Shown in pieces: positions 285 to 968 of a stretch of DNA of 11,826 bases (the first letter of the stretch is position 1; each line of letters opens with the position of its first letter). Origin of the DNA: a virus (taxonomy: Duplodnaviria > Heunggongvirae > Uroviricota > Caudoviricetes); IMG/VR virus record IMGVR_UViG_2778261065_000019; one strand, given 5' to 3'. A model generated the notes under the pieces. The model searched no databases and had not been told where the DNA came from. It saw only the letters and a list, made by a program, of their open reading frames with translations. The position numbers and the translations under genes are program-made.

Positions 285-521
285 ATGTTAATCAGGCTGC
301 TGGGCTTTGCCTGTTCGGTAGGTGTAATGATTATCGTAATACTTTTCCCCCAATGGGGTAAAAGCATCAACCGTAACGGAAGTCGTTATGGTTGCCTTGA
401 TGATCTGCGTGGTCATTATGACCATTCAGCCAATGACCTTAATCAGAGCTTTTCGCTAAAAATGACGTTGGCCACTCGTCCGGAAAGCACAAAATCCCAT
501 CGATTTTTAATTAACGGTTAA
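285..521 (+). CDS. Hypothetical small protein (78 aa) with hydrophobic N-terminus
   Basis: ORF from the six-frame track; no convincing Shine-Dalgarno upstream of the ATG. Its stop is embedded in a hairpin (ACGGTT-a-AACCGT, 514-526) followed by CTTTTTG, which looks like its own terminator. Weak overall. Confidence 0.2.
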   Translation: MLIRLLGFACSVGVMIIVILFPQWGKSINRNGSRYGCLDDLRGHYDHSANDLNQSFSLKMTLATRPESTKSHRFLING

Positions 522-532
522 ACCGTCTTTTT

Positions 533-567
533 GTCACGTCGTGTCACTGGTTGTCACTCTCCGTCAC
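533..567. repeat. Four GTCAC repeats with exact 10-bp periodicity
   Basis: GTCAC at 533-537, 543-547, 553-557 and 563-567 (tgtcacg / tgtcact / tgtcact / cgtcacg). Helical phasing suggests one-face protein binding. Confidence 0.5.
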
Positions 568-659
568 GATCTCCGATAGCCTGGCTGCAAATTAAACTAC
601 GAAAATTTCGTAGTTCTGACTTCTTTCAGATAGTCGGTTGCCTGGTTACACGAAAAAAA

Positions 660-968
660 TTACTTCCTGCGTTTATCCCGCTTTGTATGTCCGTGCTGAA
701 TGCCCCGCAGTGGATCTTCTTTTTTCAGGTCGATCCCCATGTCCGTTAGTGTTTTTGTGGCGGCGGTTCTTATGGCACAAATCAGGTCTCTTTCCGGTTC
801 CCGGGTTATGGTTGCCTTCCGGATACATGCCGTTCGTCGTTCCGTTACATACTGACGCGCTTCATCACTTGCCGCCTGTTTCAGTAACTCACCCCAGCGA
901 TTAGCCGCCCGTCGCCATAAACCTTTCGCTTCCAGTTCTTCCGCTTTGTCATCATGCACCATAAGCAT
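660..968 (-). CDS. PerC-family (Pch-like) transcriptional regulator
   Basis: Translation MLMVHDDKAEELEAKGLWRRAANRWGELLKQAASDEARQYVTERRTACIRK... carries the LE-x-KGLWRRAA-x-RW signature I associate with PerC/Pch regulators. Start is uncertain (ATG at 968 or 962; the track ORF extends to 1031 without an SD). Confidence 0.55.
   Translation of the reverse strand: MLMVHDDKAEELEAKGLWRRAANRWGELLKQAASDEARQYVTERRTACIRKATITREPERDLICAIRTAATKTLTDMGIDLKKEDPLRGIQHGHTKRDKRRK

What the first reader, a model, noticed from the sequence alone, without database searches (positions are those of the whole stretch)
500..660. Helically phased GTCAC repeats and palindromes 3' of the PerC-like gene
Four GTCAC pentamers at exact 10-bp spacing (533-567), a terminator-like hairpin (514-532) and a 17-bp palindrome CTACGAAA-a-TTTCGTAG (597-613) crowd a 150-bp region. 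Exact helical phasing is unusual for chance sequence and suggests cooperative protein binding, possibly a recombination or boundary site of the island.
Basis: seen in the sequence. Interest (0 to 1): 0.35.

Follow-up and report, generated by a model that had tools for sequence, protein, structure and literature searches.

The report
Phased GTCAC array in satellite island
Four GTCAC motifs spaced exactly one DNA turn apart are a real, conserved non-coding element of a family of E. coli phage-satellite islands (PICIs), most likely a docking array for a still unidentified DNA-binding protein, and it is not the island's edge, integrase site, packaging site or replication origin.

Summary
GTCAC sits at 533, 543, 553 and 563, which no shuffle reproduced, and a perfect 10+1+10 palindrome lies at 595-615. 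The 514-526 hairpin is weak.

The window is an EcCICFT073-type, Rpp-carrying satellite (PICI) inserted at tRNA-Pro next to yejO. Its functional sites are all elsewhere:
- junction: 103-117, confirmed by an empty site
- integrase arm-type repeats: CGTATAACTAA in both arms
- lambda-type cosN: 1844 and 2583
- ori iterons TRTCTACC: 5852-6077

The array, AACCGTCTTTT followed by 4-5 GTCAC-N5 units, recurs in 231 of 5,426 complete E. coli genomes. It is always chromosomal and occurs in islands with other integrases and packaging modules. It is absent from the phage and plasmid collections.

Its apparent original position is 9-19 nt past the stop codon of a satellite-specific 93-aa gene. In this window the perC module is inserted between the two.

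Across variants all five variable positions fall in spacers and none in pentamers (p≈0.009). This favours protein binding on one helix face. No island gene co-occurs with the array, so the binding protein is unknown. Lambda Int arm sites and the iterons of a lambdoid O-type initiator both resemble it.

The palindrome is probably the perC terminator.

The parts
533..567 (+). Array of four GTCAC pentamers at exact 10-bp steps (533, 543, 553, 563). Related islands carry a fifth unit 10 bp further on.
521..532 (+). Conserved left flank AACCGTCTTTTT, which always accompanies the array. The T-run is 4-6 nt long in different variants.
514..526 (+). Weak hairpin ACGGT-TAA-ACCGT followed by a T-run, terminator-like on the + strand only. 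Other island variants have an unrelated GC-rich hairpin at the same position.
568..572 (.). Left junction of the inserted perC-orf99 module. The window, L005 and L290 share GTCACGAT and then diverge. L006 and L151 continue with GGTATGTCAC and the stop codon of the 93-aa gene.
595..615 (-). Perfect 10+1+10 palindrome about 45 nt past the perC stop codon. In perC-sense RNA it forms a 10-bp stem followed by UUUAAUUU, so it is probably the perC terminator. The same palindrome recurs at other positions in related island ends.
660..962 (-). PerC-family regulator gene, part of the accessory module 570-1497.
1075..1374 (+). 99-aa hypothetical gene in the same accessory module.
1498..1779 (-). Satellite-specific 93-aa gene (phrog_1561). 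It is the only gene family found in every related island examined. In islands without inserted modules the array lies 9-19 nt past its stop codon.
388..459 (+). Small hydrophobic ORF MVALMICVVIMTIQPMTLIRAFR. Its amino-acid sequence is conserved in 'variant A' island ends, and its transcript would end at the 514-532 hairpin and T-run.
103..117 (.). Context: the true island junction, an attR core identical to the 3' end of tRNA-Pro.
132..198 (+). Context: integrase arm-type repeats (GTATAAC cores at 132, 180 and 192). The same repeat occurs four times beside int in attL.
1844..1855 (+). Context: lambda-type cosN GGGCGGCGACCT. A second copy lies at 2583-2594 on the minus strand, and the two flank the rpp gene (2059-2493, minus strand).
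5852..6077 (.). Context: replication-origin iterons TRTCTACC, in two inverted sets downstream of the primase gene.

Best explanation
The GTCAC array is a conserved, non-coding, cis-acting element of the integrase-distal end of a family of E. coli phage-inducible chromosomal islands (PICIs).

Most likely it is a tandem protein-binding array. Four protomers (five in islands without the insertion) of a sequence-specific DNA-binding protein would sit head-to-tail, one per helical turn, on one face of the DNA just past the last gene of the island's long leftward operon.

What is shown:
- The array is real and far beyond chance.
- It belongs to the island, not to the chromosome.
- It is not the att junction, the integrase arm sites, cos or ori.
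- It is conserved across islands with different integrases and packaging modules.
- Its pentamers are invariant while its spacers drift.
- It is not RNA-structured and not coding.

What is inferred:
- A protein binds it.
- The protein acts in trans and is not a variable island gene, because no island gene family co-occurs with the array. That leaves a helper-phage protein, a host protein or a universal island protein.

My best guess for the role is a docking or decoy site for a helper-phage protein that reads GTCAC once per turn. The two known readers of such arrays are the lambda-type integrase arm-binding domain and an O-type replication initiator.

The neighbouring features are separate. 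The 595-615 palindrome is probably the perC terminator, and the 514-526 hairpin is a weak + strand terminator.
For: - Phasing: four copies at exact 10-bp steps, reproduced by 0 of 200 shuffles.
- Conservation: the same roughly 50-bp core is flanked by unrelated sequence on either side in L005, L006, L007, L151, L165, L190, L290 and L294.
- Prevalence: 231 of 5,426 complete E. coli genomes, 259 places, all chromosomal, up to 4 per genome. IMG/VR holds 34 contigs with it. No phage or plasmid record has it.
- Constraint: variable positions 6, 7, 8, 19 and 26 all fall in spacers, and none of the 20 pentamer positions varies (hypergeometric p = 0.009).
- Unit behaviour: L294 lost exactly one 10-bp unit, and a fifth unit in L006, L165 and L190 is in phase.
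- No RNA structure on either strand (z = +0.56 and -0.5).
- No conserved ORF across variants, because the right flank differs between islands.
- Known sites lie elsewhere: junction, arm repeats, cos and rpp, ori.
- No co-occurring island protein in 22 array-positive versus 19 array-negative islands.
- Resemblance to lambda: attP P'1-P'3 read GTCAC, GTCAA and ATCAT at exact 10-bp steps inside the annotated Int-binding region.
- Resemblance to a lambdoid O-type gene: it carries six TGTCACG repeats, the first four at 10-bp steps, and shares a 17-nt identity, TGTCACGGCGTGTCACT, with some island variants.
Against: - No binding protein has been identified and nothing was tested experimentally.
- About half of the related islands with enough flanking sequence lack the array (19 of 41). 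One metagenomic copy has collapsed to a single unit (L412). The array is therefore dispensable for island survival.
- The variants are closely related, so the spacer-versus-pentamer contrast rests on only five variable sites.
- The similarity to lambda arm sites and to O-type iterons is limited to a 5-7-bp core. The O-type iterons were found by searching for GTCAC itself.
- The 17-nt identity has an estimated chance probability of about 0.1 once the number of spacer comparisons is counted.
- Only one isolate (2579778952) carries both an array-bearing island and an O-type prophage, among about 28 isolates with the array and the O-type contigs listed.
Confidence: 0.5

Rival explanations
1. The array is the island's own recombination site: integrase arm-type sites, excisionase (RDF) sites, or the island boundary.
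For: Helically phased direct repeats are typical of arm-type and RDF sites. Lambda P'1-P'3 share the GTCAC core and the 10-bp spacing. The array lies in the integrase-distal arm region, where RDF sites sit in lambda (established knowledge).
Against: - The junction is at 103-117, shown by an empty site.
- The element's arm repeats are CGTATAACTAA in both arms.
- The array is 415 bp from the core here and 400-500 bp from the arm repeats in every other island examined.
- It is shared by islands with a different integrase and different arm repeats.
- Islands with the same integrase (E1, L004) lack it.
Confidence: 0.06
2. The array is a replication element. It could be a second, crr-like set of iterons for the island's primase-helicase, or an origin or decoy read by a helper-phage O-type initiator.
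For: Satellite phage P4 needs a distal cis replication region in addition to its ori (established knowledge; mentioned in PMC6092414). A lambdoid 'replisome organizer' O-type gene carries TGTCACG iterons at 10-bp steps and shares 17 identical nucleotides with some array variants. A high-coverage Scandinavium contig that looks like a plasmid has GGTCAC repeats at 10-bp steps 3' of a large ORF.
Against: - The island's own iterons are TRTCTACC and occur only at 5852-6077.
- Islands with an equivalent primase annotation and highly similar DNA lack the array (L004).
- The window encodes no homologue of the O-type DNA-binding domain.
- No co-occurrence with O-type prophages was seen.
- The array has no adjacent AT-rich unwinding region.
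Confidence: 0.13
3. The array works at the transcript or transcription level. It could be part of the operon's 3' UTR or terminator zone, a roadblock or insulator between convergent transcription units, or a cluster of -35-like hexamers (TTGTCA / GTGACA) acting as a promoter.
For: The array sits between the end of the leftward operon and a small rightward ORF (388-459) whose hairpin and T-run end at 532. A position-conserved hairpin precedes it in both island variants. A terminator-like hairpin follows it in the operon sense in L005. GTGACA matches TTGACA at 5 of 6 positions (read from the sequence).
Against: - The array has no RNA structure.
- An exact 10-bp period has no obvious meaning for RNA.
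- No -10 element is conserved between the two flank variants (read from the sequences).
- The promoter scan found nothing here.
Confidence: 0.12
4. The array has no present function. It would be a slippage-generated or inherited repeat that hitch-hikes at a recombination junction of a very mosaic island end.
For: The surrounding region is a patchwork of duplicated short units and inserted modules. The array is missing from about half of related islands and has collapsed to one unit in L412. Loss of one unit in L294 is what slippage would produce. The variants are young, so invariant pentamers are only weak evidence of constraint.
Against: - The four spacers are unrelated to each other (GTCGT, TGGTT, TCTCC, GATCT), so this is not a recent tandem duplication.
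- Substitutions avoid the pentamers (p = 0.009).
- The core survives intact while the sequence on both sides has been replaced repeatedly.
Confidence: 0.17
5. The array is a packaging signal: cosB-like R elements for the Rpp-TerS complex, or a pac site.
For: Terminase small subunits bind repeated R elements. The island carries rpp (E = 6.5e-31 to RppC). In islands without inserted modules the array lies within about 400 bp of cosN (inferred).
Against: - It lies on the cosQ side of cosN at 1844, not the cosB side. The cosB side carries its own repeats, CCGGACAT three times.
- The array is also present in capsid-forming islands that have their own HNH, TerS and TerL and no rpp (L005).
- In the window it is 1.3 kb from cosN.
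Confidence: 0.02

Closest known systems
Lambda Int arm-type sites (P'1-P'2-P'3 of attP)
   Same: Direct repeats with a GTCAC core at exactly 10-bp steps, as in lambda at L406 238, 248 and 258. They are bound head-to-tail by a small N-terminal domain on one helix face (established knowledge).
   Different: The flanking bases differ: lambda has a purine before GTCAC and TAT after it, whereas the array has T or C before and G or T after. The array is 400-500 bp from any att core. The island's own integrase uses other arm repeats. The array has four to five perfect cores, whereas lambda has one perfect and two degenerate.
Recombination directionality factor arrays (lambda Xis, P2 Cox, 186 Apl)
   Same: Four to seven direct repeats one helical turn apart in an integrative element. 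Some also act away from att as regulators (PMC7498355 abstract).
   Different: No promoter or att core lies next to the array. No small helix-turn-helix gene co-occurs with it. Binding was not tested.
Iterons inside lambdoid 'replisome organizer' O-type replication genes (Escherichia phages Evi, Tritos, vB_EcoS-689R5)
   Same: TGTCAC(G/T) units at 10-bp steps, and a 17-nt identity with some array variants.
   Different: The phage iterons lie inside the initiator's coding sequence. The island array is non-coding, has no AT-rich neighbour, and the island has no such initiator. That the phage repeats are iterons is itself inferred from sequence.
PICI ori iterons and the P4 ori/crr type I iterons
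   Same: Short direct repeats in a satellite that are bound by its primase-helicase (PMC6092414).
   Different: The iterons here are TRTCTACC in two inverted sets beside the primase gene. The array has a different motif and a single orientation, and lies 5 kb away.
EcCICFT073-type PICI cos1/cos2 with a PICI-specific cosB (Rpp system)
   Same: The element family is the same: lambda-like cosN twice, an rpp gene and an accessory perC gene.
   Different: The array is not part of either cos site, and it also occurs in islands without rpp.

Membership tests
Island-chromosome junction (att core) | Sequence identity with the target tRNA end at the point where homology with an empty site stops. | tested here: not met
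   Empty-site homology ends at window 117, and the tRNA-Pro 3' end corresponds to 103-117. The array is at 533-567.
Integrase arm-type sites of this element | The same short repeat is present in both arms, within about 150 bp of the core. | tested here: not met
   The repeat found in both arms is CGTATAACTAA. GTCAC arrays are absent from attL. The array is 415 bp from the core.
Integrase arm-type sites of this element | The repeat changes when the integrase type changes. | tested here: not met
   The same array occurs in islands with the TTAACTACACC-type integrase. It is absent from an island with the same integrase as the window (L004).
Lambda-type Int arm-type site (consensus C/AAGTCACTAT, recalled; checked against lambda attP) | GTCAC core with the flanking consensus, in tandem at about 10 bp. 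| tested here: inconclusive
   The core and the spacing match. By my own comparison, array units match the recalled 10-mer consensus at 5-8 of 10 positions. Binding is not testable here.
RDF (excisionase) binding array | Direct repeats one helical turn apart, located between the core and the distal arm sites or at a regulated promoter. | tested here: inconclusive
   The repeat geometry is met. The location criterion is not met: no core within 400 bp and no promoter found.
Replication origin iterons of the island | The motif is shared with the repeats beside pri-rep, with an AT-rich region between the repeat sets. | tested here: not met
   TRTCTACC occurs only at 5852-6077. The array motif differs and has no AT-rich partner.
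cos site (cosQ-cosN-cosB) | A lambda-type cosN 12-mer with adjacent small-terminase or Rpp R elements. | tested here: not met
   cosN is at 1844 and 2583. The array is 1.3 kb away and is also present in islands without rpp.
Intrinsic terminator (hairpin 514-532) | A stable GC-rich stem followed by a U-run. | tested here: inconclusive
   It passes a simple pattern scan, but it folds at only -4.4 kcal/mol, no better than shuffles.
Intrinsic terminator (palindrome 595-615, perC sense) | A stable stem followed by a U-rich tail just past a stop codon. | tested here: inconclusive
   A 10-bp stem followed by UUUAAUUU lies 45 nt past the perC stop codon; the region scores z = -2.34. The stem is AT-rich and the tail is interrupted.
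Known RNA family | A match to an Rfam covariance model. | tested here: not met
   No Rfam match with E <= 1 in window 1-2700.

The most novel reading that the evidence does not exclude
The array is a satellite-borne mimic of a helper-phage DNA site. It would copy either the GTCAC iterons of a lambdoid O-type initiator or the arm-type sites of a lambda-like integrase. Amplified on the replicating island, it would soak up or recruit that helper protein. That would be an origin or att decoy used for interference or hijacking, a mechanism not described for any phage satellite.
Probability: 0.12. Interest if true: 0.7.

Novelty: new member of a known kind. Interest (0 to 1): 0.4.

Why it matters
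PICIs are widespread satellites that move virulence genes such as perC and interfere with temperate phages. Their known cis sites are att, ori and cos. This work finds a further conserved cis element, present in about 4% of complete E. coli genomes. It is independent of integrase and packaging type, and it sits at the spot where accessory modules such as perC are inserted.

I found no description of it in the papers searched. If it binds a helper or host protein, it would reveal an unrecognised step in satellite-helper interplay. If it does not, it is still a useful marker of the island's terminal module and of the insertion point for accessory genes.

Tried and rejected
- Island boundary or arm sites: rejected by the empty site and by the CGTATAACTAA repeats in both arms.
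- cos site: cosN is at 1844 and 2583, flanking rpp.
- Island ori or a crr-like site: the iteron motif is different and confined to 5852-6077.
- Known RNA family: none.
- RNA structure of the array: none.
- Promoter: no scan hit, and no -10 element conserved between flank variants.
- Coding sequence: the window's ORF 531-749 and the 78-aa ORF 285-521 are not conserved, because indels break the frame.
- Binding by an island protein that varies with the array: no family is associated in 22 versus 19 islands. The best uncorrected p is 0.004, for a family present in only 8 of 22.
- Binding by PerC: most array-bearing islands have no perC next to the array, and PerC-like proteins show no association.
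- Function of the neighbouring 93-aa protein:
  - No Pfam match.
  - No significant PDB sequence hit; the best is E = 0.2.
  - The AlphaFold model is three helices at pLDDT 70.
  - No structural match below E = 0.96.
  - Whether it is the published RgdR could not be settled.
- Capture of a phage O-gene fragment: homology is limited to 17 nt.
- Co-residence of array-bearing islands with O-type prophages in IMG/VR isolates: one shared isolate and a truncated list, so uninformative.
- Metagenome scan anchored on the left flank: mostly chance hits, with two relevant ones (L427 has the full five-unit array; L412 has collapsed to one unit).
- Pattern scan of reference genomes: only Shigella carried the island array. 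The other hits were unrelated repeats, including high-GC sequences and a probable Scandinavium plasmid.

Full report
**Observation**

The sequence shows GTCAC at 533, 543, 553 and 563 on the + strand. The pentamer is not enriched in the window overall (15 copies, 16 expected). Three or more phased copies occur only here and in none of 200 shuffles. The analytic chance is about 2e-8, or about 9e-5 allowing any pentamer and 9-12 bp spacing.

The palindrome is a perfect 10+1+10, AACTACGAAA-a-TTTCGTAGTT, at 595-615. The hairpin at 514-526 with its T-run passes a simple terminator scan. It folds at only -4.4 kcal/mol, no better than shuffled sequence.

**What the window is**

It is nearly identical to chromosomal islands of E. 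coli lying between yejO and tRNA-Pro. Its genes are:

| Feature | Coordinates (strand) | Evidence |
|---|---|---|
| P4-type integrase | 10585-11826 (-) | |
| D5-type primase-helicase | 6092-7846 (-) | |
| SSB | 5106-5528 (-) | |
| Lambda gpE-like capsid protein | 3429-4484 (-) | |
| PerC-family regulator | 660-962 (-) | |
| RppC homologue | 2059-2493 (-) | E = 6.5e-31, |

Two lambda-type cosN 12-mers, at 1844 (+) and 2583 (-), flank rpp. This is the layout published for EcCICFT073-type PICIs, which have two cos sites and a PICI-specific cosB read by Rpp-TerS. Those papers also note perC as a frequent accessory gene (PMC6092414 and PMC6739421).

**Where the known cis sites are**

- Junction. 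Genomes with an empty site have yejO, then 102 bp, then tRNA-Pro. They match the window only up to position 117, and the tRNA 3' end equals window 103-117.
- Arm-type sites. GTATAAC-core repeats (CGTATAACTAA) lie at 132, 180 and 192 in the attR arm. Four more copies lie between the tRNA and the start of int in attL. Islands with another integrase carry TTAACTACACC repeats instead.
- Origin. TRTCTACC iterons in two inverted sets occur only at 5852-6077, just downstream of the primase gene.
- cos. See above. CCGGACAT occurs three times on the cosB side of the 1844 copy.

The GTCAC array is none of these.

**Distribution and anatomy of the array**

A 53-nt query covering the array matches 231 of 5,426 complete E. 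coli genomes at 259 places. All are chromosomal, with up to four per genome. It matches nothing in 50,697 phage records or 72,556 plasmid records. IMG/VR holds 34 contigs with it.

It occurs in islands at other attachment sites and with other packaging modules:
- next to clpS in O145:H28 (L002)
- next to phoQ in an island with its own HNH, TerS and TerL (L005)
- at yejO in islands with a protease-capsid fusion or a small terminase (L006 and L007)

Alignment shows an invariant core, A(A/T)ACCGTCTTTT(T) followed by GTCAC-N5 units, with unrelated sequence on either side.

In several islands a fifth in-phase GTCAC follows. The array then ends 9-19 nt past the stop codon of a 93-aa gene on the minus strand. 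In the window that gene is at 1498-1779, and the perC-orf99 module (about 570-1497) sits between it and the array. The sequence shared with other islands breaks right after GTCACGAT. The perC module therefore appears to have been inserted at the right edge of the array, removing the fifth unit.

**Evidence for constraint**

Across the six distinct 35-nt variants, the variable positions are 6, 7, 8, 19 and 26. All are in spacers, and none of the 20 pentamer positions varies (p = 0.009). The four spacers are unrelated to one another, so the array is not a recent tandem duplication.

L294 has lost exactly one 10-bp unit. One metagenomic copy has collapsed to a single unit (L412).

The array is unstructured as RNA on both strands, matches no Rfam family and lies in no conserved ORF.

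**Search for a binding protein**

I compared the roughly 10 kb upstream of the 93-aa gene in 22 array-positive and 19 array-negative islands. This covers most of each island where the contig allows. The only universal family is the 93-aa protein itself. No family tracks the array; the best is present in 8 of 22 versus 0 of 19, with p = 0.004 before correction.

The 93-aa protein is satellite-specific: phrog_1561, no Pfam match and no match in phage records. Its model is a three-helix protein at pLDDT 70, with no significant structural neighbour. Its possible identity with the published RgdR could not be settled.

The array is thus either read by a protein common to all these islands or supplied in trans by the host or a helper phage.

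**Resemblances**

Scanning public collections for four GTCAC at 10-bp steps found a second common class in enterobacterial viral contigs. These repeats lie inside a lambdoid replication-initiator gene. That gene matches PHROG replication-initiation and replisome-organizer families, contains a DnaT domain, and is followed by a lambda-P-like gene. The same gene is present in Escherichia phages Evi, Tritos and vB_EcoS-689R5.

Its repeats read TGTCAC(G/T). They share 17 identical nucleotides, TGTCACGGCGTGTCACT, with some island variants, and nothing outside that stretch. The window encodes no homologue of that initiator. The truncated IMG/VR lists give no co-occurrence signal.

Separately, lambda attP shows that GTCAC is the core of Int arm-type sites and that P'1, P'2 and P'3 sit at exact 10-bp steps. 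The flanking bases differ from the array.

Both resemblances rest on a short core. They are leads, not tests.

**Neighbouring features**

In perC-sense RNA the 595-615 palindrome forms a 10-bp stem followed by UUUAAUUU, 45 nt past the perC stop codon (z = -2.34). The same palindrome recurs at other positions in related island ends. It is most simply the perC terminator and one member of a family of hairpin units.

The 514-526 hairpin would end a rightward transcript of a small hydrophobic ORF, 388-459, MVALMICVVIMTIQPMTLIRAFR. That peptide is conserved at the amino-acid level in one flank variant. The other flank variant has an unrelated GC-rich hairpin at the same position.

**Verdict**

The cooperative-binding idea is plausible and gains comparative support. 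The boundary or recombination idea is rejected.

The array is an undescribed, conserved but dispensable cis element of E. coli PICI ends. It is best read as a tandem protein-binding array with an unknown binding protein. Its function was not established, so interest is moderate. Interest would be high only if the array proves to be a helper-protein decoy.

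Noticed in passing
window 1844-1855 (+), 2583-2594 (-), 1894-1990: Two inverted lambda-type cosN 12-mers flank an Rpp homologue (2059-2493, minus strand). The cosB side of the 1844 copy carries CCGGACAT three times (1894 on the minus strand, 1953 and 1983 on the plus strand). These are candidates for the undescribed PICI R elements read by Rpp-TerS.
   Followed up: partly
whole window: Chi (GCTGGTGG) occurs 10 times in 11.8 kb, against 0.3 expected from shuffles. Related island ends carry further + strand Chi copies just left of the array, at a position where the window has GCTGCTGG.
   Followed up: partly
window 388-459 (+): A 23-aa hydrophobic ORF, MVALMICVVIMTIQPMTLIRAFR, is conserved at the amino-acid level across island variants and is not annotated in RefSeq. 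It looks like a small membrane peptide or type I toxin. A convergent terminator-like hairpin at about 460-483 is stronger in L005.
   Followed up: partly
window 1379-1497; L248-L327 downstream of the 93-aa gene: The DNA 3' of the 93-aa gene is a mosaic of roughly 45-nt units. Each unit repeats the gene's last codons and following bases (CGGCGGTAAC..TGATATTTTCGG) and then carries a different palindrome: TGCAAATTTGCA, GCGCAAAATTGCGC, CTCAATTTGAGG or CTACGAAATTTTCGTAG. The window has three such 22-bp palindromes.
   Followed up: partly
window 10136-10175: A tandem 20-bp repeat, AAAACAGTACCCACCGTTTT / AAAACGGTACCCACTGTTTT, lies upstream of the AlpA-like gene (9864-10070, minus strand). It may be an operator of the island's master regulator.
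   Followed up: no
window 5847-6080: The replication origin has eight exact and two near TRTCTACC iterons in two inverted sets around an AT-rich stretch, as published for E. coli PICIs.
   Followed up: yes
L170 747-1793 (IMG/VR); phages Evi, Tritos, vB_EcoS-689R5: A lambdoid replisome-organizer/DnaT-domain replication gene carries six TGTCACG repeats in its N-terminal coding region, the first four at exact 10-bp steps. A second GTCAC cluster lies about 300 bp downstream, as read from the translated sequence. The N-terminal domain is about 71% identical in Pseudomonas and Aeromonas phages.
   Followed up: partly
L412 about 540-620 (food metagenome contig): In this natural variant the array has collapsed to a single GTCAC unit between the conserved left flank and the 93-aa gene, presumably by recombination between repeats.
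   Followed up: no
L033 1616-1650 (Scandinavium hiltneri contig, about 1168x coverage): Five GGTCAC repeats preceded by a T-run lie 3' of a 561-aa ORF on what looks like a plasmid; the last four are at exact 10-bp steps. This may be an unrelated iteron origin with the same core motif.
   Followed up: no
L002 about 3960-3985, L005 about 2795-2815, L006 about 2900-2920: A conserved 20-bp palindrome GATATGGGGATCCCCATATC and a CCGGA-T7/8-TCCGG hairpin lie between the att arm and the array in several islands. The window has lost the first of these.
   Followed up: no
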